NCBI RefSeq assembly: GCF_023055435.1
Contig: NW_025964383.1
Coordinates: forward strand, 20,646,001 to 20,710,000
Origin: Haliotis rufescens
Lineage: Eukaryota
Direction of reading: 5' to 3'
DNA: 64,000 bases
The translations under genes and the position numbers were made by a program. This document shows, one piece after another, positions 5,061 through 59,908 of this stretch (positions are counted from its first letter, which is position 1; each line of letters opens with the position of its first letter). The notes below the pieces were generated by a model that ran no database searches, was not told the origin of the DNA, and saw only the letters and a program-made list of their open reading frames with translations.

Positions 5061-6258
5061 CCCGTGAAGATCCGGGTTGGAATCGGTCTTCACCAACCCG
5101 TGCTTGTCTCCCCGCGAAGATCAAGGTTGGAATCGGTCTTCACCAACCCGTGCTTGTCTCCCCGTGAAGATCCGGGTTGGAATCGGTCTTCACCACCCCG
5201 TGCTTGTCTCCCCGTGAAGATCCGTGTTGGAATCGGTCTTCACCAACCCGTGCTTGTCTCCCCGTGGAGATCCGGGTTGGAATCGGTCTTCACCAACCCG
5301 TGCTTGTCTCCCCGTGAAGATCAGGGTTGGAATCGGTCTTCACCAACCCGTGCTTGTCTCCCCGCGAAGATCAAGGTTGGAATCGGTCTTCACCAACCCG
5401 TGCTTGTCTCCCCGTGAAGATCAGGGTTGGAATCGGTCTTCACCACCCCGTGCTTGTCTCCCCGTGAAGATCCGTGTTGGAATCGGTCTTCACCAACCCG
5501 TGCTTGTCTCCCCGTGGAGATCAGGGTTGGAATCGGTCTTCACCAACCCGTGCTTGTCTCCCCGTGAAGTTCCGGGTTGGAATCGGTCTTCACCAACCCG
5601 TGCTTGTCTCCCCGTGGAGATCCGGGTTTGAATCGGTCTTCACAACCCCGTGCTTGTCTCCCCGTGAAGATCAGGGTTGGAACCGGTCTTCACCAACCCG
5701 TGCTTGTCTCCCCGTGAAGATCCGGGTTGGAACCGGTCTTCACCAACCCGTGCTTGTCTCCCCGTGAAGATCCGGGTTGGAATCGGTCTTCACCAACCCG
5801 TGCTTGTCTCCCCGTGAAGATCAGGGTTGGAATCGGTCTTCACCAACCCGTGCTTGTCTCCCCGTGAAGATCCGGGTTGGAACCGGTCTTCACCACCCCG
5901 TGCTTGTCTCCCCGTGGAGATCAGGGTTGGAATCGGTCTTCACCAACCCGTGCTTGTCTCCCCGTGGAGATCAGGGTTGGAACCGGTCTTCACCAACCCG
6001 TGCTTGTCTCCCCGTGAAGATCCGGGTTGGAACCGGTCTTCACCACCCCGTGCTTGTCTCCCCGTGAAGATCCGGGTTGGAACCGGTCTTCACCACCCCG
6101 TGCTTGTCTCCCCGTGGAGATCAGGGTTGGAATCGGTCTTCACCAACCCGTGCTTGTCTCCCCGTGAAGATCAGGGTTGGAATCGGTCTTCACCAACTCG
6201 TGCTTGTCTCCCCGTGAAGATCCGTGTTGGAATCGGTCTTCGCCAACCCGTGCTTGTC
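5061..6258 (+). repeat. 24 x 50-bp tandem array made of the family A 5' head
   Basis: Unit CCCGTGAAGATCCGGGTTGGAATCGGTCTTCACCAACCCGTGCTTGTCTC begins every 50 bp from 5061 to 6211, with no indels. Confidence 0.95.
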
Positions 6259-6261
6259 CTC

Positions 6262-6473
6262 CAGTCAGAATAGGTCTTAAGATCTGGTACTTGTCGTAAG
6301 AGGCGAATATCGAGATCGGATGGTCAGGCTCGCTGACTTGGTTGATGCATGTCATCGTATCCGAATTACGTAAATCGATGTTTGTGATGTTAAGAACTGG
6401 ATTGTCTGGTCTAGACTCGATTATCGCCGTCATAATATTGCTGAGTGCGGTGATAGAAAACTAACAAACAAAC
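6262..6473 (+). mobile_element. Family A body and tail directly after the 50-bp array
   Basis: AGAATAGGTCTT...CTTGTCGTAAGAGGCGA...GGTCAGGCTCGCTGACTTGG...(CAAA)n. Confidence 0.85.
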
Positions 6474-6679: not shown

Positions 6680-7565
6680 CAGTAAAACATTAGTTAAACA
6701 ATTGATTTCAGTAAAACATTAACTAAACAATTGATTTCAGTAAAACATTAACTAAACAATTGATTTCAGTAAAACATTAACTAAACAATTGATTTCAGTA
6801 AAACATCGCACTAACCAATTGATTTCAGTAAAACATTCATTAGAAAATTGATTTCAGTACAACATGACATCAGACAATTTATTTCAATAAAACATTCATT
6901 GGACAATTGATTTCAGCAAAACATTTATTAGACATTGGTTTCAGTACAACATGGCATTAGACAATTTATTTCAATAAAACATTCTTTGGACAATTGATTT
7001 CAGACCAACGTGGCATTAGACAATTGATTTTAGTACAACATGGCATTTGACAATTTATTTCAATAAAACATTCATTAGAAAATTCATTTCAGTAAAACAT
7101 TATTTGACAATTAATTCCAAAACCTTAATATTGATTCCAGTAAATAACAAAATATTTCAGTAAAACATTCATTAGACAATCGATTTCAGTACAACATTGC
7201 ATGCATTGCAAATTCATTAGACAATTTATTTCAATAAAACATGCATTAGACAATTGATTTCAGTACAACATGGCATTAGACAATTTATTTCAATAAAACA
7301 TTCATTGGACAATTGATTTCAGTACAACATAGTAACAGACAATGTATTTCAATAAAACATTCATTAGAAAATTGATTTCAGTGAAAGATTATTTGACAAT
7401 TGATTCCAAAACCTTAATATTGATTCCAGTAAAACCTTAATAAAACAAATAATTTCAGTAAAACATTCATTAGACAATTGATTTCAGTAAAACAGTCATC
7501 GACATCTGATTTCAGTTAAACGTTGCATTTGACATTTGTAGTAAAACATTTATTAAACAATTGAC
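6680..7565. repeat. 29-bp AT-rich minisatellite
   Basis: Unit CAGTAAAACATTAACTAAACAATTGATTT, diverging towards the right. Confidence 0.9.
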
Positions 7566-10124: not shown

Positions 10125-10961
10125 CAACACACAGCGTGAAGCTGGTAACTTCTGAACACAACACAGCGTGAAGCTGTAACTTCTGAACACAACACAGCGT
10201 GAAGCTTGTAATGTCTGAACACAACACACAGCGTGAAGCTGATAACTTCTGAACACAACACACAGCGTGAAGCTTGTAATGTCTGAACACAACACAGCGT
10301 GAAGCTGTAACTTCTGAACACAACACACAGCGTGAAGCTTGTAATGTCTGAACACAACACACAGCGTGAAGCTGGTAACTTCTGAACACAACACAACGTG
10401 AAGCGTGTAATGTCTGAACACAGAACAACGTGAAGCGTGTAATATCTGAACACAACACACAACGTGAAGCTGGTAATGTCTGAACACAACACTGCATGAA
10501 CCGGGTAATGTCTGAACGCAACGCACAACGTGAAGCTTGTAATATCTGAACACAATACACAATGTGAAGTTTGCAATGTCTGAACACAACACAACGTGAA
10601 GCTGGTTATGTCTGAACACAATACACAATGTGAAGTTTGCAATGTCTGAACACAACACAACGTGAAGCTTGTAATGTCTGAACACAACACACAACGTGAA
10701 GCTTGTAATGTCTGAACACAACGTGAAGCTTGTAATGTCTGAACACAACACATAACGTGAAGCTTGTAATGTCTCAACACAACACACAACGTGAAGCTTG
10801 TAATGTCTCAACACAATACACAACGTGAAGGTGGTAATGTCTGAACACAACACACAGCTTGAAGCGGGTAATGTCTGAACACAACACACAACGTGAAGCG
10901 TGTAATGTCTGAACACAACACACAGCGTGAAGCTTGTAATGTCTGAACACAACACACAACA
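10125..10961. repeat. 31-34-bp minisatellite
   Basis: Unit ACACAACACACAACGTGAAGCTTGTAATGTCTGA; source of the overlapping Cys-rich ORFs. Confidence 0.95.
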
Positions 10962-11941: not shown

Positions 11942-12205
11942 GACCCGTGAAGATCCTGGGTAGAATAGGTCTTCAGCAACCCATGCTTACCGTAAAAGGC
12001 GACTATGCTTGTCGTAAGAGGCGACTACCGGGATCGGGTGGTCAGGATCGCTGACTTGGTTGATGCATGTCATTGTATCCCAATTGCGTGGATCGATGCT
12101 CATGATGTCAGTCTGTTCGAGTCTGGTTCAGACTCGATTTCTTTACAGACCGCCGTCATATAGCTGGAATATTGCTGAGTGCGGCGTTAAACAACAAACA
12201 AACAA
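11942..12205 (+). mobile_element. Family A element, full length (reference copy)
   Basis: GACCCGTGAAGATCC...AGAATAGGTCTTCAGCAACCCATG, duplicated 22-nt module, body, tail GGCGTTAAAC(AACA)n; no Pol III A/B boxes found. Confidence 0.92.
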
Positions 12206-28074: not shown

Positions 28075-28277
28075 GGGTGCGCGAGATGGGAGGGGTGCGC
28101 GAGATGGGAGGGTGCGCGAGATGGGAGGGGTGCGCGAGATGGGAAGGGTGCGCGAGATGGGAGGGATGCCCGAAATGGGAAGGGTGGCGAGATGGTACGG
28201 ACGCGCGAGATGGGAGGGGTGCGCGAAATGGGAGGGGTGCGCAAGATTTGGAAGGGTGCGCGAGATGGGAGGGATGG
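28075..28277. repeat. 18-bp GC-rich minisatellite
   Basis: Unit GGGTGCGCGAGATGGGAG, about 11 copies. Confidence 0.9.
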
Positions 28278-32339: not shown

Positions 32340-35300
32340 CATATACACTGCACCGGTCATGAATACGGATGACCATATACACTACAATGGTCATGAATCA
32401 CAGATGACCATATACACTACACCGTCATGAATCACAGATGACCATATACACTACACCGGTCATGAATCACAGATGACCATATACACTACACCGGTCATGA
32501 ATCATAGATGACCTTACACACTACAACGGTCATGAATCATAGATGACCTTATATACTACACTGGTCATGAATACGGATGACCATATACACTACACCGGTC
32601 ATGAATCACAGATGACCATATACACTACACCGGTCATGAATCACAGATGACCATATACACTTCACCGGTCATGAATCACAGATGACCATATACACTACAC
32701 CGGTCATGAATCACAGATGACCATATACACTACACCAGTCATGAATCAAAGATGACCATATACACTACACCGGTCATGAATACAGATGACCATCACATAC
32801 AATACACCGGTCATCTATACGGATAACAACATACACTACACCGGTCATGAATCACAGATGACCATATACACTACACCGGTCATGAATCACAGATGACCAT
32901 ATACACTACACCAGTCATGAATCAAAGATGACCATATACACTACACCGGTCATGAATACAGATGACCATCACATACAATACACCGGTCATCTATACGGAT
33001 AACAACATACACTACACCGGTCATGAATCACAGATGACCATATACACTACACCGGTCATGAATCACAGATGACCATATACACTACAATGGTCATGAATAC
33101 GGAAGACCATATACACTACACCGGTCATGAATACAGATGACCATATACACTACAATGGTCATGAATACGGAAGACCATATACACTACACCGGTCATGAAT
33201 CACAGATGACCATATACACTACACCGGTCAACTATACGGATGACCATATACACTACACTGGTCATGAATCACAGATGACCATATACACTGCACCGGTCAT
33301 GAATACAGATGACCATATACACTACAATGGTCATGAATACGGAAGACCATATACTCTACAATGGTCATGAATCACAGATGACCATATACACTACACCGGT
33401 CAACTATACGGATGACCATATACACTACACCAGTCATGAATACGGATGACCATATACACTGCACCGGTCATGAATACGGATGACCATATACACTACAATG
33501 GTCATGAATACGGATGACCATAAACACTACACCGGTCACGAATACAGATGACCATATACACTACAATGGTCATGAATACGGATGACCATATACACTGCAC
33601 CGGTCATGAATACGGATGACCATATACACTACACCGGTCATGAATCACAGATGACCATATACACTACACCAGTCATGAATCAAAGATGACCATATACACT
33701 ACACCGGTCATGAATACAGATGACCATCACATACAATACACCAGTCATCTATACGGATGACAACATACACTACACCGGTCATAAATCACAGATGACCATA
33801 TACACTACACCGGTCATGAATCACAGATGACCATATACACTACAATGGTCATGAATACGGATGACCATATACACTGCACCGGTCATGAATACGGATGACC
33901 ATATACACTACACCGGTCATGAATACAGATGACCATATACACTACAATGGTCATGAATACAGACCATATACACTGCACCGGTCATGAATACGGATGACCA
34001 TATACACTACAACGGTCATGAATACGGATGACGGATGACCATATACACTACACCGGTCATGAATACAGATGACCATATACACTACACCGGTCATGAATAC
34101 GGATGACCATATACACTGCACCAGTCATGAATCACATATGACATTATACACCACACCGGTCATGAATAGGGATGACCATGTGCACTACAATGGTAGTGAA
34201 TCACAGAACTATATGCACTACACCGGTCATGAATCACAGATGACCTTATACACTACACCGGTCATGAATCACAGATGACCATATACACTACACCGGTCAT
34301 GAATCACAGATGACCATATACACTACACCGGTCATGAATACAGATGACCATATACACTACACCGGTCATGAATACGGTTGACCATATACACTACACCGGT
34401 CATGAATACGGTTGACCATATACACTACACCGGCCATGAATACGGTTGACCTTATACATTACACCGGTCATGAATCACAGATGACCTTATACACTTCACC
34501 GGTCATGAATCACAGATGACCATATACACTACACCGGTCATGAATACGGATGACCATATACACTACACTGGTCATGAATATGGATGACCATATACACTAC
34601 AATGGTCATGAATACGATTGACCTTATACACTACAACGGTCATGAATACGGATGACCTTATACACTACGCCGGTCATGAATACAGTTGACCTTATACACT
34701 ATTCCAGTCATGAATACAGTTGACCTTATACACTACGCCGGTCATGAATCACAGATGACCATATACACTACACCAGTCATGAATACGGATGACCATATAC
34801 ACTACAATGGTCATGAATCACAGATGAACATATACAGTACAATGTTCATGAATACAGATGACCATATACACTACAATGGTCATGAATCACAGATGACCAT
34901 ATGCAGTACAATGGTCATGAATCACACATGAACATATACACTACAATGTTCATGAATACGGATGACCATATACACTACAATAGTCATGAATCACAGATGA
35001 CCATATACAGTACAATGTTCATGAATACAGATGACAATATACACTACAATGGTCATGAATCATAGATGAACATATACACTGCAATGTTCATGAATACGGA
35101 TGACCATATACACTACAATGGTCATGAATCACAGATGACCATATAGAGCACAATGTTCATGAATCACAGATGACGTTATACACTACAATGGTCATGAATC
35201 ACAGATGACCATATACACTACACCGGTCATGAATCACAGATGACCTTATACACTACACCGGTCATGAATCACAGATGACCATATACACTACACCGGTCAT

Positions 35301-35935
35301 GAATACAGATGACCATATACACTACAATGGTCATGAATCACAGATGACCATATACACTACACCGGTCATGAATCACAGATGACCATATACACTTCACCGG
35401 TCATGAATCACAGATGACCATATACACGACAATGGTCATGAATCACAGATGACCATATACACTACAATGGTTATGAATCACAGATGACCATATACACTAC
35501 AATGGTCATGAATCATAGATGAACATATACACTGCAATGTTCATGAATACGGATGACCATATACACTACAATGGTCATGAATCTTAGATGAACATATACA
35601 CTGCAATGTTCATGAATACGGATGACCATATACACTACAATGGTCATGAATTACAGATGACCATATAGAGTACAATGTTCATGAATCACAGATGACGTTA
35701 TACACTACACTGGTCATTAATCACAGATGGCCATATACACTACAATGGTCATGAATCACAGATGACCATATACACTACACCGGTCATGAATCACAGATGA
35801 CCATATACACTTCACCGGTCATGAATCACAGATGACCATATACACGACAATGGTCATGAATCACAGATGACCATATACACTACAATGGTTATGAATCACA
35901 GATGACCATATACACTACAATGGTCATCAATACCT
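32340..35935. repeat. 34/35-bp satellite, about 100 units
   Basis: Unit ATATACACTACACCGGTCATGAATCACAGATGACC, with internal inverted GGTCAT/ATGACC. Confidence 0.97.
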
Positions 35936-37250
35936 GCTGATTATATACACTAGAAATATTACACATCAGCGATGAGCACATGGCCAAACATTTACTTATC
36001 ATAAAAGATCATAAACCCTGCAACTCTAAATACTCTGATCAAAACACATGACATAAATGATCGTATACACTATAGCAAATAATACATGATCTTATACACT
36101 ACGACAAACCATAAATGATGTTATACTCTACTACAAATCATAAATGATATTACACACTATTACAAATTATAAATAATATTAAACACTATTACAAATCATA
36201 AATGATCTTACATGTACACACTACACTATTACAAATAATAAATGATCTTACACTCTACAGCTATTACAAATAATATAATATCCTCAACACTATTACAAAC
36301 CATTAATGGTCTTATAACACTATTACAAATAATAAATTATTTTATACTCTATTACAAAGCAAAAGTGTTCGTCCACACTATTAGGCCAAATAATTGATTT
36401 TGTATAAGTATTACAAACCATTAATGGTCTTATACACTACACTATTACAAATAAAAAATGATCTTCAACATTATTGCAAATAATAAATGATCTTGTACTC
36501 TACAGCTATTGCAAATAATGATTTAATACAAACCATTGATGGTCTTATAGCACTATTACAAAAAGTAAATGATCTCATTCACAATTGAAAACCATAAATG
36601 AACTTGTACACTATAGATAAAATATAAATGACCTTATACACTATTGTCATGTTATGCACTATTACAAACTATTAATGGTCTTATAACACTATTACAAATA
36701 ATAAATTATTTTATACTCTATTACAAAGCAAAAGTGTTCGTCCACACTATTAGGCCAAATAATTGATTTTGTATAAGTATTACAAACCATTAATGGTCTT
36801 ATACACTACACTATTACAAATAAAAAATGATCTTATACTTTATTGCAAATAATAAATGATCTTATACTCTACAGCTATTGCAAATAATAAATGATTTAAT
36901 ACACTATTACAAACCAGGAATGGTCTTATAACACTATTACAAATAATAAATGATCTTATACACTACACAATTACAAATAATAAATGATCTTATACACTAT
37001 TACAAACCATAAATGATCTTATACACTACACAATTACAAATAATAAATGATCTTCAACATTATTGCAAATAATAAATGATCTTGTACTCTACAGCTATTG
37101 CAAATAAAACATGATTTAATACACTATTACAAACCATTAATGGTCTTATAGCACTATTACAAAAAGTAAATGATCTCATTCACAATTGAAAACCATAAAT
37201 GAACACTATAGATAAAATATAAATGACCTTATACACTATTGTCATGTTAT
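35936..37250. repeat. Degenerate 29-34-bp transitional satellite
   Basis: Unit about AATAAATGATCTTATACACTATTACAA; block at about 36290-36530 repeated about 369 bp downstream. Confidence 0.85.
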
Positions 37251-40200
37251 GCACTATTACAAAACATAAATCATCTCATTCACTCTTAGAAATCATAATC
37301 GATGTTATGCACTATTACAAATAATAAATCATCTCATTCACTCTTAGAAATCATAAACGATGTTATGCACTATTACAAAAAATAAATCATCTCATTCACT
37401 CTTAGAAACCATAAACGATGTTATGCACTATTACAAATAATAAATAATCTCATTCACTATTAGAAATCATAAACGATGTTATACACTATTACAAATAATA
37501 AATCATCTTATACACTATTAGAAATCATAAACCATGTTATGCACTATTACAAATAATAAATCATCTTATACACTATTAGAAATCATAAACGATGTTATAC
37601 ACTATTACAAATAATAAATCATCTTATACACTATTAGAAATCATAAACGATGTTATGCACTATTAGAAATCATAAACGATGTTATACACTATTACAAATA
37701 ATAAATCATCTTATACACTATAAGAAATAATAAACGATGTTATGCACTATTACAAATAATAAATCATCTTATACACTATTTGAAATCATAAACGATGTTA
37801 TGCACTATTACAAATAATAAATCATCTCATACACTATTAGAAATCATAAACGATGTTATGCACTATTACAAATAATAAATCATCTCATACAATATTAGAA
37901 ATCATAAACGATGTTATGCACTATTACAAATAATAAATCATCTCATTCACTATTAGAAATCATAGATGTTATGCACTATTACAAATAATAAATCATCTCA
38001 TACACTATTAGAAATCATAAACGATGTTATGCACTATTACAAATAAAAAATCATCTCATGCACTATTAGAAACCATAAACGATGTTATGCACTATTACAC
38101 ATAATAAATCATCTCATACACTATTAGAAATCATAAACGATATTTTGCACTGTTAGAAATAATAAATCATCTCATTCACTATTAGAAATCATAAACGATA
38201 TTATGCACTATTTCAAATAAAAAATCATCTCATGCACTATCAGAAACCATAAACGATGTTATGCACTATTACAAATAATAAATAATCTCATTCACTATTA
38301 GAAATCATAAACGATGTTATACACTATTACAAATAATAAATCATCTTATACACTATTAGAAATCATAAACCATGTTATGCACTATTACAAATAATAAATC
38401 ATCTTATACACTATTAGAAATCATAAACGATGTTATACACTATTACAAATAATAAATCATCTTATACACTATTAGAAATCATAAACGATGTTATGCACTA
38501 TTAGAAATCATAAACGATGTTATACACTATTACAAATAATAAATCATCTTATACACTATAAGAAATAATAAACGATGTTATGCACTATTACAAATAATAA
38601 ATCATCTTATACACTATTTGAAATCATAAACGATGTTATGCACTATTACAAATAATAAATCATCTCATTCACTATTAGAAATCATAAACGATGTTATGCA
38701 CTATCACAAATAATAAATCATCTTATACACTATTAGAAATCATAAACGATGTTATGCACTATTACAAATAATAAATCATCTCATACAATATTAGAAATCA
38801 TAAACGATGTTATGCACTATTACAAATAATAAATCATCTCATTCACTATTAGAAATCATAGATGTTATGCACTATTACAAATAATAAATCATCTTATACA
38901 CTATTAGAAATCATAAACGATGTTAAGCACTATTACAAATAATAAATCATCTCATACAATATTAGAAATCATAAACGATATTTTGCACTGTTAGAAATAA
39001 TAAATCATCTCATTCACTATTAGAAATCATAAACGATATTATGCACTATTTCAAATAAAAAATCATCTCATGCACTATCAGAAACCATAAACGATGTTAT
39101 GCACTATTACAAATAATAAATCATCTCATTCACTATTAGAAATCATAAACGATGTTATACACTATTACAAATAATAAATCATCTTATACACTATTAGAAA
39201 CCATAAACCATGTTATGCACTATTACAAATAATAAATCATCTTATACCCTATTAGAAATCATAAACGATGTTAAGCACTATTACAAATAATAAATCATCT
39301 CATACACTATTAGAAATCATAAACGATGTTATGCACTATTACAAATAATAAATCATCTCATGCACTATTAGAAATCGTAAACGATGTTATGCACTATTAC
39401 AAATAATACATCATCTCATTCACTATTAGAAATCATAAACGATATTTTGCACTGTTAGAAACAAATAAATCATCTCATTCACTATTAGAAATCATAAACG
39501 ATATTATGCACTATTTCAAATAAAAAATCATCTCATGCACTATCAGAAACCATAAACGATGTTATGCACTATTACAAATAATAAATAATCTCATTCACTA
39601 TTAGAAATCATAAACGATGTTATACACTATTACAAATAATAAATCATCTTATACACTATTAGAAACCATAAACCATGTTATGCACTATTACAAATAATAA
39701 ATCATCTTATACACTATTAGAAATCATAAACGATGTTAAGCACTATAACAAATAATAAATCATCTCATACACTATTAGAAATCATAAACGATGTTATGCA
39801 CTATTACAAATAATAAATCATCTCATGCACTATTAGAAATCATAAACGATGTTATGCACTATTACAAATAATAAATCATCTCATACACTATTAGAAATCA
39901 TAAACGATGTTATGCACTATTACGGATAATACATAATCTCATACACTATTTGAAATCATAAACGATGTTATGCACTATTACAAATAATAAATCATCTCAT
40001 ACACTATTAGAAATCATAAACCATGTTATGCACTATTACAAATAATAAATCATCTCATACACTATTAGAAATCATAAACCATGTTATGCACTATTACAAA
40101 TAATAAATCATCCCATACACTATTAGAAATCATAAACGATGTTATGCACTACTACAAATAATAAATCATCTCATGCACTATTAGAAATCATAAACGATGT

Positions 40201-40446
40201 TGTGCACTATTACAAAATATAAATCATCTCATACACTATTAGAAATCATAAACGATGTTATGCACTATTACAAATAATACATAATCTCATACACTATTTG
40301 AAATCATAAACGATGTTATGCGCTATTACAAACCGTAAATGCTTTTATACGCTACACTATTACAAACCGTAAATGCTTTTATACACTACACTATTACAAG
40401 CTATAAATGATGTCAGTCATAAATGAACATATACACTATAATGGTT
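37251..40446. repeat. 58-bp (2 x 29) dimeric AT-rich satellite
   Basis: AAATAATAAATCATCTCATACACTATTAG + AAATCATAAACGATGTTATGCACTATTAC. Confidence 0.97.
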
Positions 40447-45400: not shown

Positions 45401-45682
45401 ACCCGTGAAATTCACACGTGAAAATCCGGTTTAGAATAGGTTTTCAGCTACCCACGCTTGCCGTAAAAGGCGACAATGCTTTTTGTAAGAGGCGACTAAC
45501 GGGATCGAGTGGTCAGTCTCGCTGACTTGGTTGAGTTACGTCATCCTATCCCAACTGCGTGGATCGGTGCTCAGTACGTCCATCGCTAGATTGTCTGGTC
45601 CAGACTCCATTATTTCCAGACCGCTGTCATACAGCTGGGATAGTGCTTGGTGACGTTAAACAACAAAGAATCAAACAAATAA
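45401..45682 (+). mobile_element. Family A element, full length
   Basis: Head variant TGAAAATC...GGTTTTCA, two hairpin modules, tail. Confidence 0.88.
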
Positions 45683-46294: not shown

Positions 46295-46547
46295 TGATCC
46301 GGAGTGGAATAGGTCTTCAGCAACCCATGCTTGCCGTAAAAGGCGACTCTGATTGTCGTAAGAGGCGATTAACGGGATCGGGTGGTCAGGCTCGCTGACT
46401 TGGTTGATGCATGTCATTGTATCCCAGTTACGTGGATCGATGCTCATGATGTCAGTCACTGGATTGTCTGGTCCAGACTCTATTATTTACAGACCGCGTC
46501 ATATAGCTTGAATATTGCTGAGTGCAGCGTTAAACAACAAACTAACA
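46295..46547 (+). mobile_element. Family A element, slightly 5'-truncated
   Basis: GATCCGG...GAATAGGTCTTCAGCAACCCATGCTTGCCGTAAAAGGCGAC... Confidence 0.9.
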
Positions 46548-50372: not shown

Positions 50373-51114
50373 TGTGGCGACTTTCACCTCTTCCTTCAGA
50401 GCGATATCTGATATATATTTCTACCGTGGCGACTTTCACCTCTTCCTTCAGGTGATATCTGATATATATTTCTACCGTGGCCACTTTCACACTCTCCTTC
50501 AGAGTGATATCTGATATATATTTCTACCGTGGCCACTTTCACCTCTTCCTTCAGAGTGATATCCCATATATATTTATACCGTGGCTACTTTCACCTCTTC
50601 CTTCAGAGTGATATCTGATATATATTTATACCGTGGCCACTTTCACCTCTTCCTTCAGAGTGATATCTGATATATATTTATACCGTGGCCACTTTCACCT
50701 CTTCCTTCAGAGTGATATCTGATATATATTTATACCGTGGCCACTTCCACACTCTCCTTCAGAGTGATATCTGATATGTATTACTACCGTGGCCACTTTC
50801 ACCTCTTCCTTCAGAGTGATATCTGATATATATTTATACCGTGGCCACTTTCACCTCTTCCTTCAGAGTGATATCTGATATATATTACTACCGTGGCCAA
50901 TTTTACACTCCCTTCCGAGCGATATCTGATATGTATTACTACCGTGGCCACTTTCACCTCTTCCTTCAGAGTGATATCTGATATATATTTATACCGTGGC
51001 CACTTTCACCTCTTCCTTCAGAGTGATATCTGATATATATTTATACCGTGGCCACTTTCACCTTTTCCTTCAGAGTGATATCTGATATATATTTCTACCG
51101 TGGCCACTTTCACC
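50373..51114. repeat. 52-bp minisatellite, about 14 units
   Basis: Unit CCGTGGCCACTTTCACCTCTTCCTTCAGAGTGATATCTGATATATATTTATA. Confidence 0.95.
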
Positions 51115-51209
51115 TACTACTGCTACTACTACTACTACTACTACTACTACTATTTTTATTACTTCTATTACTACTTAACCTACTTTTGTTACTACTACTA
51201 CTACTACTT

Positions 51210-55597: not shown

Positions 55598-58283
55598 CCA
55601 ACATCCACCCACACCATCTCCCTCCCTGTCAACATCCACCCACACCATCTCCCTCCATGTCAACATCCACCACACCATCACCCACAATGTCAACATCCAC
55701 CACACCATCACCCAGAATGTCAACATCCACCCACACCATCACCCACCATGTCAACATCCATCCACACCATCTCCCACCCTGTCAACATCCACCCACACCA
55801 TCTCCCTCCATGTCAACATCCACCCACACCATCTCCCTCCCTGTCAACATCCACACCATCTCCCTCCCTGTCAACATCCACCACACCATTTCCCTCCCTG
55901 TCAACAACCACCCACACTGTCAACATCCACCCACACCATCTCCCTCCCTGTCAACATCCACCCACACCATCTCCCTCCCTGTCAACATCCATCCACACCA
56001 TCTCCCTCCCTGTCAACATCCACCCACACCATCTCCCCCATGTCAACATCCACCCACACCATCTCCCTCCATGTCAACATCCACCACACCACCCCCCTCC
56101 CTGTCAACATCCACACCATCTCCCTCTATGTCAACATCCACCCACACCATTTCCCTCCCTGTCAACAACCACCCACACTGTCAACATCCACCCACACCAT
56201 CTCCCTCCCTGTCAGTATCCACCCACACCATCTCCCTCCCTGTCAAAATCCACCCACACCATCTCCCACCATATCAACATCCACCCACACTATCTCCCTC
56301 CCTGTCAACATCCACCCACACCATCTCCCTCCCTGTCAACATCCACCCACACCATCTCCCTCCCTGTCAACATCCATCCACACCATCTCCCACCCTGTCA
56401 ACATCCACCACAACATCTCCCTCCCTGTCAACATCCACACCATCTCCCTCCATGTCAACATCCACCCACACCATTTCCCTCCCTGTCAACAACCACCCAC
56501 ACTGTCAACATCAACCCACATCATCTCCCTCCATTTCAACATCCATCCACACCATCTCCCACCCTGTCAAGATCCGACCACACCATCTCCCTCCATGTCA
56601 ACATTCACCCACACCATCTCCAACCATGTCAACATCCACCCACACCATCTCCCACCATATCAACATCCACCCACACCATCTCCCTCCATGTCAACATCCA
56701 CCCACACCATCTCCCTCCCTGTCAACATCCACACCATCTCCCTCTATGTCAACATCCACCCACACCATTTCCCTCCCTGTCAACAACCACCCACACTGTC
56801 AACATCCACCCATACCATCTCCCTCCCTGTCAACATCCACCCACACCATCTCCCTCCCTGTCAACATCCATCCACACCATCTCCCTCCCTGTCAACATCC
56901 ACACCATCTCCCTCTATGTCAACATCCACCCACACCATTTCCCTCCATGTCAACAACCACCCACACTGTCAACATCCACCCACACCATCTCCCTCCCTGT
57001 CAACATCCACCCACACCATCTCCCTCCCTGTCAACATCCACCCACACCATCTCCCTCGCTGTCAACATCCACCCACACTATCTCCCACCATATCAACATC
57101 CACCCACACCATCTCCCTCCCTGTCAACATCCACCCACACCATCTCCCTCCCTGTCAACATCCACCCACACCATCTCCCTCGCTGTCAACATCCACCCAC
57201 ACCATCTCCCTCGCTGTCAACATCCACCCACACCATCTCCCTCCATGTCAACATCCACCCACACCATCTCCCTCCATGTCAACATCCACCCACACCATCT
57301 CCCATCATGTCAACATCCACCCATACCATCACCCTGCCTGTCAACATCCACCCACACCATCTGCATCCATGTCAACATCCACCCACACCATCTCCCTCCC
57401 TGTCAACATCCATCCACACCATCTCCCTCCCTGTCAACATCCACCCACACCATATCCCTCCCTGTCAACATCCACCCACACCATCTCCCTCCCTGTCAAC
57501 ATCCACCACACCATCTCCCTCCATGTCAACATCCACACCATCTCCCTCTATGTCAACATCCACCCACACCATTTCCCTCCATGTTAACAACCACCCACAC
57601 TGTCAACATCCACCCACACCATCTCCCTCCCTGTCAACATCCACCCACACCATCTCCCTCCCTGTCAACATCCACCCACACCATCTCCCACCATATCAAC
57701 ATCCACCCACACCATCGCCCTCCCTGTCAACATCCACCCACACCATCTCCCCCCATGTCAACATCCACCCACATCATCTCCCTCCATGTCAACATCCACC
57801 ACACCATCTCCCTTCCTGTCAACACCCACACAATCTCCCTCCATGTCAACATCCACCCACATCATCTCCCTCCATGTCAACATCCACCCACACCATCTCC
57901 CTCCATGTCAACATCCACCCACACCATCTCCCTCCATGTCAACATCCACCCACACCATCTCCCACCATATCAACATCCACCCACACCATCTCCCTTCCTG
58001 TCAACATCCACACCATCTCCCTCCATGTCAACATCCACCACACCATCTCCCATCATGTGAACATCCACCCACACCATCTCCCTTCATGTCAACATCCACC
58101 CACACCATCACCAACCCTTGCCAACATCCACCCACACCATCACCCACCCATCCCAACATCCACCCACACCATCACCCAACCATCACAACATCCACCCACA
58201 CCATCACCCACCCTTGCTAACATCCACCACACCATCACCCAACCATCACAACATCCACCCACACCATCACCCACCCTTGCCAA
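55598..58283. repeat. 31-bp C/A-rich minisatellite, about 2.7 kb
   Basis: Unit TGTCAACATCCACCCACACCATCTCCCTCCC with 22-30-bp variants; source of the 893, 770 and 515-aa ORFs. Confidence 0.97.
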
Positions 58284-58647
58284 CAGAAACTGGTACATAA
58301 TTAAGGAATATTTATTAAAATGTAAAGTCATTTGTTAGAAACCGTTGAATATATCCTGATGCATTAACATGTAGCATTGGTGTACGCCAAGGTTGTATTC
58401 TTAGCACCTCCCTTTTCTGTATTTTCATCAATGAACTTGCTGCACGAATTTAGGATAATTGTGCTTATAGTATACAGATGCATGCAGATATTGTTTGCAT
58501 ATTTTTGTAGCTTATTGCTGATGATATGGTTATGTTCATGAGTACTATAAAAGGTTTACAAAATTTGATAGATAAACAGAGCTGTTTTGTTGTTAACTCG
58601 AAGTAAACACTGAAAAACGAATGTGTCAGATTTTGAAAAGGTAAATA

Positions 58648-59527: not shown

Positions 59528-59908
59528 ACGGAAGCCTGTTTGGGCCATTTGTTGTTTTGTCTTTCTTCTTAAAATTTCAAGATACTAAGTTGATTTTAAA
59601 GACACCAACTTGAAATTTCAAGATAATTTGTTGAAATTTCAAAATACATAAGTTGAAATATCAAGATACTAACTTGAAATTTCAAGATAATAACTTGAAA
59701 TTCCAAGATACATACCTAGTTGAAATTTCAACATCATTATCTTGAAATTTCAAGATAAAAAGTTGAAATTTCAAGTTAATATCTTGAAATTTCAACTTAG
59801 TATCTTGAAATTTCAACATCACATCTTGGTATTTCAATTTAGTTTCTTGAAATTTAAAGAAAAAACACACAAAAAACCCAAAAACAAATGGCCCTAAAAG
59901 GCTTCCGT
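59528..59908. mobile_element. Foldback-type palindromic MITE with modular internal repeats
   Basis: Ends ACGGAAGCCTGTTTGGGCCATTTGTT / AACAAATGGCCCTAAAAGGCTTCCGT; internal units of about 21 bp built on TTGAAATTTCAA. Confidence 0.85.

What the first reader, a model, noticed from the sequence alone, without database searches (positions are those of the whole stretch)
5061..6473. 24 exact 50-bp tandem copies of the family A head fused to one element body
Seen: the unit is the complete pseudoknot domain plus the start of the first hairpin. It is repeated with no indels and runs into a family A body and tail. Variant patterns show a 5-unit (250-bp) higher-order duplication (CCCGCGAAGATCAAGG at 5111 and 5361; TCCGTGTT in the 5211 and 5461 units). 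The common variant TGGAGATC keeps S2 as a G-U pair. The internal repeat CCCGTG...CCCGTG could seed slippage or template jumping. Known: satellite-encoded ribozyme multimers exist (newt satellite 2, Schistosoma Sm-alpha). Inference: either the birth of a minisatellite from a retroposon head, or a retrotransposed multimer of a small, possibly circular, RNA.
Basis: partly seen in the sequence, partly recalled or inferred. Interest (0 to 1): 0.7.

Follow-up and report, generated by a model that had tools for sequence, protein, structure and literature searches.

The report
Contagious SINE-head minisatellite family
This is one of hundreds of tandem repeats in this genome made from the first 50 letters of a very common jumping element; it grew in place as DNA, and its shared joint likely spread from one copy of the element to neighbouring copies by recombination, rather than arriving as a copied circular or self-cutting RNA.

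Summary
The array is real (24 x 50 bp, no indels, ending in a family A body) but neither exact (16 distinct units) nor unique. The same head-to-head junction has 2,305 genome matches; 92 of 104 arrays examined end in a body. It is a mollusc counterpart of the SINE-derived satellites (sSats) of reptiles. It grew in place: units differ 5.8% from each other but 14.5% from the family head. Most units break the predicted pseudoknot, and two derived arrays lost half of it, so an RNA multimer or circle is unlikely. The surprise is the seed: a non-family pyrimidine linker recurs in every body subfamily, arrays crowd contig ends while single copies do not, neighbouring arrays share linker type (19 of 31 pairs, 10.2 expected), and a derived junction allele sits in unrelated insertions within 1 Mb yet not in their first head. 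Best reading: ectopic gene conversion passes the junction between neighbouring SINE copies, then each array expands (about 0.6). Against: other variants are not shared locally. The scan had noted this family's head before (e1-10133478), not these arrays.

The parts
5061..6260 (+). Minisatellite: 24 x 50-bp units = family A head positions 1-46 plus a TCTC linker; five changes from the family head are in at least 80% of units (17T, 19G, 24C, 33C, 40G; 17T is an old-subfamily marker)
   Evidence: private core GGGTTGGAAYCGG found elsewhere only in 6 single heads
5111..5560 (+). One 250-bp block duplication inside the array (units 2-5 match units 7-10)
   Evidence: 0,1,0,1 differences at lag 5
6259..6296 (+). 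Degenerate, 5'-deleted 25th head, likely the element's own original head; carries family alleles AGAATAGG, not the array's GGAATCGG
   Evidence: three other runs read TTCAGC here, closer still to the family head
6290..6456 (+). Family A body (second hairpin, decayed closing arm, body); 11.6% substitutions from the family majority
6457..6473 (+). Simple-repeat tail (AAAC-type); no target-site duplication found around this element
   Evidence: (best match 6 bp)
11942..12199 (+). Single-headed family A copy used as comparison; about a dozen further partial or full copies lie in the window (e.g. 536-785 minus, 916-1128, 45414-45667, 46296-46542)

Best explanation
The array is a minisatellite made of the 5' head of a SINE-like retroposon; it grew in place as DNA, and its first head-to-head joint was likely copied into a single-headed element from another array by ectopic gene conversion. 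Step 1 (shown for the family by target-site duplications; inferred for this copy): a single-headed element retrotransposes. Step 2 (inferred): a break in its head is repaired on a non-allelic array, usually a near one, which donates the linker and a few flanking bases or whole units, leaving the recipient's GA start, target-site duplication and body in place. Step 3 (shown): once two heads stand in tandem, unequal exchange or slippage expands and turns over the units, fixing private variants and making block duplications. The pyrimidine linker would have arisen once or a few times long ago; how it first arose is unexplained. The RNA fold of the head plays no needed part in steps 2-3.
For: Growth in place: window units 5.8% apart but 14.5% from the family head, body 11.6%; a multimer inserted once and left to age would show about 23%. 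Same-flank duplicates hold 3 versus 4 units. Recurrence: 226, 2,305 and 476 junction matches, controls 0. Polyphyly: 43 linker arrays and 54 single copies share all body markers at like frequency (no column p<0.29); an older, diverged head lineage has the same linker. Geography: on C1, 10 of 11 array loci but 11 of 57 body-selected copies lie within 10 Mb of an end (p=1e-5); 28 loci on nine other contigs lean the same way (KS p=0.014); 0 of 50 body-selected C1 copies have two heads against 6 of 37 head clusters in 600 kb of C190. Local sharing: 19 of 31 pairs within 1 Mb share linker class, 10.2 expected (p=0.003; within-contig shuffle p=0.01). Marker: junction allele CCAGTG occurs at 11 independent loci of the 52-bp class, four within 1 Mb on C190 and three within 7.6 Mb on C68, with unrelated flanks and different body subfamilies; it is absent from the first unit in 11 of 11 and from 82 of 82 GA-preceded heads; 3 of the 4 young arrays in the C190 census carry it. 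A second search with a one-base shorter linker gave 10 loci, two 0.9 Mb apart and one inside the C68 cluster. In L244 the first unit has the GATTCC subfamily mark and units 2-3 lack it. Units end GCTTGTC even where the element's own body reads GCTTGCC. The window's own 25th head differs from its 24 units.
Against: Once the CCAGTG allele is dropped, neighbouring arrays share rare unit variants no more than arrays on different contigs (0.078 versus 0.082 per pair, p=0.55; 3 of 51 near pairs). Clustering of the 21 CCAGTG loci is significant against a uniform genome (p=3e-4) or 400 Mb (p=0.008) but not if arrays are confined to 133 Mb (p=0.23); in several long arrays the allele is a minor, probably recurrent mutation (1 of 25, 6 of 31, 5 of 28 units). 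Linker classes for the neighbour test were assigned by hand from exact-match lists, and the C190 region was chosen because of the allele. Dimers and trimers share almost no private changes (1 shared, 30 not, 19 loci), so the joint must be gained soon after insertion, which also fits an origin at insertion. Five of seven GATTCC arrays have the mark in all or nearly all units (read by eye), needing a GATTCC donor or a junction-only transfer. The window's array is interior on its contig (20.65 of 49.5 Mb) and no donor for it was found in 264 kb around it or genome-wide.
Confidence: 0.6

Rival explanations
1. Multi-headed master elements are transcribed from their first head and retrotransposed as dimers or short multimers; the arrays then grow in place.
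For: Target-site duplications enclose array plus body in 21 of 52 arrays with a body (15 of 56 single copies); dimers and trimers are star-like; it explains one stereotyped junction simply.
Against: Linker arrays sit in every body subfamily; they crowd contig ends while single copies do not; GATTCC arrays carry the linker class of their neighbourhood (TCTC on C2, TCTCCC on C28); loci sharing CCAGTG have different bodies and lie close together.
Confidence: 0.2
2. The reverse transcriptase makes the joint anew at a few percent of insertions by jumping from the RNA 5' end back to position 46-48, adding non-templated bases (template jumping as recalled for R2 elements).
For: Linker length varies from 2 to 6 bases between loci; polyphyly; star-like dimers; arrays begin at the true 5' end.
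Against: Predicts the same genomic spread as single copies and no local sharing of linker class or of CCAGTG; 0 of 50 young C1 copies show a double head.
Confidence: 0.1
3. Each array began by independent replication slippage at short repeats inside the head.
For: The 36-, 45- and 59-bp unit classes do join at 3-4 base microhomologies; the window is rich in unrelated minisatellites (23% of bases).
Against: The 48-52-bp class has a linker found in neither end of the family head and it recurs at hundreds of loci.
Confidence: 0.06
4. The array is a reverse-transcribed multimer of a 50-nt circular or self-processing RNA, like ribozyme satellites.
For: Unit starts at the element's 5' end and spans a predicted hairpin plus loop pairing; exact unit length.
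Against: Private variants fixed along the array; fixed start phase and a terminal body; pairs broken in 20 of 24 units; 38-bp x 158 and 30-bp x 133 derived arrays lack one stem arm; no Rfam match.
Confidence: 0.03

Closest known systems
SINE-derived satellites (sSats) of squamate reptiles, Vassetzky et al. 2023, PMC10702118 (seen: abstract, background, start of results, passages, whole Discussion)
   Same: Tandem units cut from part of a SINE, one longer terminal unit running to the SINE's end, few to hundreds of units, many loci with the same unit, preference for subtelomeric regions.
   Different: Mollusc-type host, parent without a tRNA head, 50-bp unit (theirs 70-290), a foreign linker at the joint. 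The paper asks whether sSats are confined to squamates and does not use the term gene conversion (0 occurrences); it does not explain how one junction reaches many dispersed copies.
Spread of Rsp-like into 1.688 clusters in Drosophila simulans/mauritiana, Sproul et al. 2020, PMC7403614 (seen: passages)
   Same: A rare junction arises once, then seeds new loci where a homologous repeat already stands; shared junctions; discordant adjacent repeat; interlocus gene conversion or eccDNA proposed.
   Different: There both partners are satellites; here the recipient is a dispersed single retroposon and the transferred joint turns it into a minisatellite.
LP-SINEs (Hdi_LP, Hmi_LP), Matetovici et al. 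2016, PMC4758252 (seen: passages, section 10, one supplement table; sequence supplement not searchable)
   Same: About 255 bp, LINE-derived 70-bp head, target-site duplications, simple-repeat tail; likely the parent family.
   Different: Sequence identity could not be checked; no head arrays are mentioned in the section read.
Tandem SINE arrays of Scapharca broughtonii, PMC11481361 (seen: passages); Alu-, B1- and MaLR-derived minisatellites as tabulated in PMC9659126 (seen: passages)
   Same: Tandem repeats arising from retroposon sequence, some inside one target-site duplication.
   Different: Scapharca units are near-whole tRNA SINEs; no inter-locus spread of a junction was described in the passages seen.
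Ribozyme satellites (newt satellite 2, Schistosoma Sm-alpha); recalled, no call
   Same: Tandem units with a foldable RNA.
   Different: Those carry a hammerhead core in each unit and are processed to monomers; this unit has no such core and does not keep its pairs.

Membership tests
sSat (SINE-derived satellite) | Unit is a part of a SINE, shorter than the SINE | tested here: met
sSat (SINE-derived satellite) | Longer terminal unit reaching the SINE's end | tested here: met
   body after last unit in 92 of 104 arrays
sSat (SINE-derived satellite) | Many loci with the same unit, few to hundreds of copies | tested here: met
   2-45 units, 56, 133 and 158 in derived arrays
sSat (SINE-derived satellite) | Subtelomeric preference | tested here: met
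   contig ends, (telomeres themselves not located; this array is interior)
sSat (SINE-derived satellite) | Unit 70-290 nt from a tRNA-headed SINE (as in the published cases) | tested here: not met
   unit 48-52 nt; no Rfam tRNA match; hence filed as a variant
LP-SINE (parent family) | About 255 bp with target-site duplications and simple-repeat tail | tested here: met
   258-nt majority sequence, duplications in 15 of 56 single copies
LP-SINE (parent family) | Head homologous to the 5' ends of Nimb-17_LMi, I-3_DR, RTE-9_CPB; identity to Hdi_LP | not testable with these tools
   sequence supplement not searchable
Ribozyme satellite / retrozyme multimer | Known self-cleaving motif in each unit | tested here: not met
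   no hammerhead core in the unit
Ribozyme satellite / retrozyme multimer | Units keep the fold | tested here: not met
   4 of 24 keep all pairs; derived arrays lose a stem arm
Ribozyme satellite / retrozyme multimer | Monomer, ladder or circular RNA | tested here: inconclusive
   three miRNA-seq runs gave 2, 26 and 2 reads on a dimer locus, no pile-ups; size selection would lose a 50-mer
Hybrid-repeat seeding by interlocus conversion (Rsp-like/1.688 type) | Same junction at separate loci with discordant adjacent repeat | tested here: met
Hybrid-repeat seeding by interlocus conversion (Rsp-like/1.688 type) | Recipient shown to pre-exist by synteny in other genomes | not testable with these tools
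   no related genome is held (header)

The most novel reading that the evidence does not exclude
A tandem-repeat junction behaves as a contagious allele: by ectopic gene conversion it converts dispersed single SINE copies into minisatellites, spreading along chromosome neighbourhoods, with rare junction alleles marking local outbreaks. This would be a traceable route from interspersed to tandem repeats and would explain why SINE-derived satellites share one unit across many loci.
Probability: 0.55. Interest if true: 0.62.

Novelty: new variant of a known kind. Interest (0 to 1): 0.42.

Why it matters
How one tandem unit appears at hundreds of separate retroposon copies is left open in the sSat paper. 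Here each array keeps its own target site and body, so donor and recipient parts can be told apart, and junction alleles act as lineage tags. That makes inter-locus spread, and its distance dependence, directly testable with population long reads. It also extends sSats beyond reptiles and supplies hundreds of probable VNTR markers. The locus in hand is an ordinary member of the family.

Tried and rejected
Rfam at gathering score over the window and at E up to 5 on a single head: nothing meaningful. The look-up of sequencing runs: no RNA holder listed. Small-RNA lay on a dimer locus: too few reads; RNA-guess contigs of X17 cover head and body far more deeply than the junction bin, but contigs cannot show level or ends. 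Linker as the reverse complement of each locus's own 5' flank: did not fit in the loci read by eye. Sharing of internal unit variants between neighbours: negative. Search for a donor or sister of the window's unit: none. Target-site duplication for the window element: none; a head remnant upstream of unit 1: not above chance (944 of 2000 shuffles). A tree was built but not read; polyphyly rests on the marker table. Tandem-repeat density of flanks (array loci 13.5%, interior controls 7.1%) is not comparable because stretch lengths differ; not used. Searches for prior description of these arrays or of this mechanism in SINEs; none found in the listings, and the library lacks most subscription papers.

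Full report
Observation. Tandem Repeats Finder gives 24.0 copies of a 50-bp unit at 5061-6258 with no indels. The units are not exact: 16 distinct sequences in 24, with six recurrent variable sites. Units 2-5 match units 7-10 almost perfectly, a single 250-bp block duplication. After unit 24 lies a degenerate 25th head with the family's alleles rather than the array's, then a family A body and tail. Contigs of runs from three studies bridge the last unit into the body, and unit bins are about 15-65 times deeper than the flank, which fits a multi-copy array but is no copy number.

The parent. Family A is a 258-nt SINE-like element with a GA-CCCGTG start (GA in 75 and 81 of 98 heads at the two positions), target-site duplications and an AAAC-type tail; one exact 26-mer of its head has 10,217 matches. 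Length and build fit the LP-SINEs of Matetovici et al. (section 10 and one supplement table seen), but the published sequence could not be compared. No Rfam family matches. An older head lineage shows two paired changes in the first stem (GGGGAT with GTCCCC), so the fold is probably real for the element; that does not carry over to the arrays.

The array is one of a family. Exact or near-exact searches for the joint give 36, 226, 2,305 and 476 matches with reversed-pattern controls at 0; an open-gap search gives 903 head-to-head joints. Its first 100 hits fall, by my count, in about 34 loci: about half have a pyrimidine linker after head position 46 (units of 48-52 bp), the rest join at short microhomologies (36, 45, 59 bp). 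Of 104 arrays examined, 92 have a body after the last unit, 79 start at head position 1-4 and 47 are preceded by GA; sizes run from 2 to 45 units. These loci were found by exact patterns and lean towards young arrays. This anatomy is that of the sSats of reptiles (PMC10702118).

Growth in place. The window's units are 5.8% apart, 14.5% from the family head, and the body is 11.6% diverged; five changes are in at least 80% of units and their core occurs elsewhere only in six single heads. Other long arrays behave alike. Same-flank duplicates differ in unit number, 3 against 4. Only 4 of 24 units keep all predicted pairs, and arrays of 38 bp x 158 (100 kb from the window) and 30 bp x 133 keep the linker but have lost part of the fold. 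A retroposed RNA multimer or circle predicts none of this.

The seed. The linker is not part of the single-headed element, yet linker arrays occur in every body subfamily at the frequency of single copies (43 against 54 copies). Arrays crowd contig ends where single copies do not (C1: 10 of 11 against 11 of 57 within 10 Mb, p=1e-5, controls). Among 59 loci on contigs C1-C68, with segmental duplicates counted once, 19 of 31 pairs within 1 Mb share linker class against 10.2 expected (p=0.003). A transversion just after the linker (CCAGTG) marks 13 loci of the 52-bp class, 11 after two same-flank duplicates are dropped; four lie within 1 Mb on C190 and three within 7.6 Mb on C68, in unrelated flanks, with different bodies, and none has it in the first unit. 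A census of 600 kb of C190 found 6 arrays among 37 head clusters; all four young ones have the 52-bp linker and three the marker. The 51-bp version adds 10 loci, two 0.9 Mb apart and one inside the C68 cluster. In L244 the first unit keeps a subfamily insertion that units 2-3 lack. This is what repair of a broken head on a nearby non-allelic array would leave: recipient start, target site and body, donor joint. Sproul et al. propose the same logic for Rsp-like seeding of 1.688 clusters (passages).

Against. Apart from that marker, neighbours share no more rare variants than distant arrays (p=0.55), so transfer would be mostly of the joint, or from young near-consensus donors. Marker clustering loses significance if arrays are confined to about a tenth of the genome (p=0.23), and the marker also arises as a minor variant inside long arrays. 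Short arrays are star-like (1 shared against 30 unshared changes), which fits early conversion but also an origin at insertion. No donor was found for the window's own array. I put growth in place at about 0.9 and seeding by ectopic conversion at about 0.6; retrotransposed multi-head masters 0.2, template jumping 0.1.

RNA. No RNA holder was listed and three small-RNA runs gave 30 reads in all on a dimer locus; neither bears on the question.

Verdict. The locus is an ordinary member of an apparently undescribed SINE-head minisatellite family (searches), a variant of a known kind. The interest lies in the family-level evidence for contagious spread of the joint. The host is named as abalone only by an earlier scan note, untested here.

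Noticed in passing
L371:3541-9569 (G000:C605, about 100 kb left of the window): 38-bp x 158 minisatellite derived from an older head lineage; keeps the TCTC linker, lost about head positions 4-15.
   Followed up: partly
L238:1-3950 (G000:C2:44.41 Mb): 30-bp x 133 minisatellite that keeps the linker and lost the middle of the head.
   Followed up: partly
L348, L011/L090, L004/L089, L006/L088: Older head lineage with paired changes in the first stem (GGGGAT/GTCCCC) and a diverged body, also arrayed with a TCTC(C) linker.
   Followed up: partly
L247 and L248 (G000:C28:0.39-0.41 Mb): Two unrelated insertions 14 kb apart in opposite orientation share two rare unit variants and a linker variant, a likely exchange between arrays.
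   Followed up: partly
L242 (G000:C68:17.09 Mb): Three heads and the start of a fourth join directly to the tail with the body missing, inside an apparent target-site duplication.
   Followed up: no
window 5061-5110: Three of the array's fixed changes (19G, 33C, 40G) lengthen the inverted repeats of the unit; chance or palindrome-directed mutation.
   Followed up: no
window 6680-7564, 10125-10960, 28075-28274, 32340-35952, 36052-40332, 50374-51115, 55599-58285, 59567-59860: Many unrelated minisatellites (18-58 bp units); 23% of the window outside the head array.
   Followed up: no
L249-L252 (G000:C46:37.33-37.44 Mb): One array-bearing segment duplicated four times near the contig end, with 23-56 units.
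   Followed up: no
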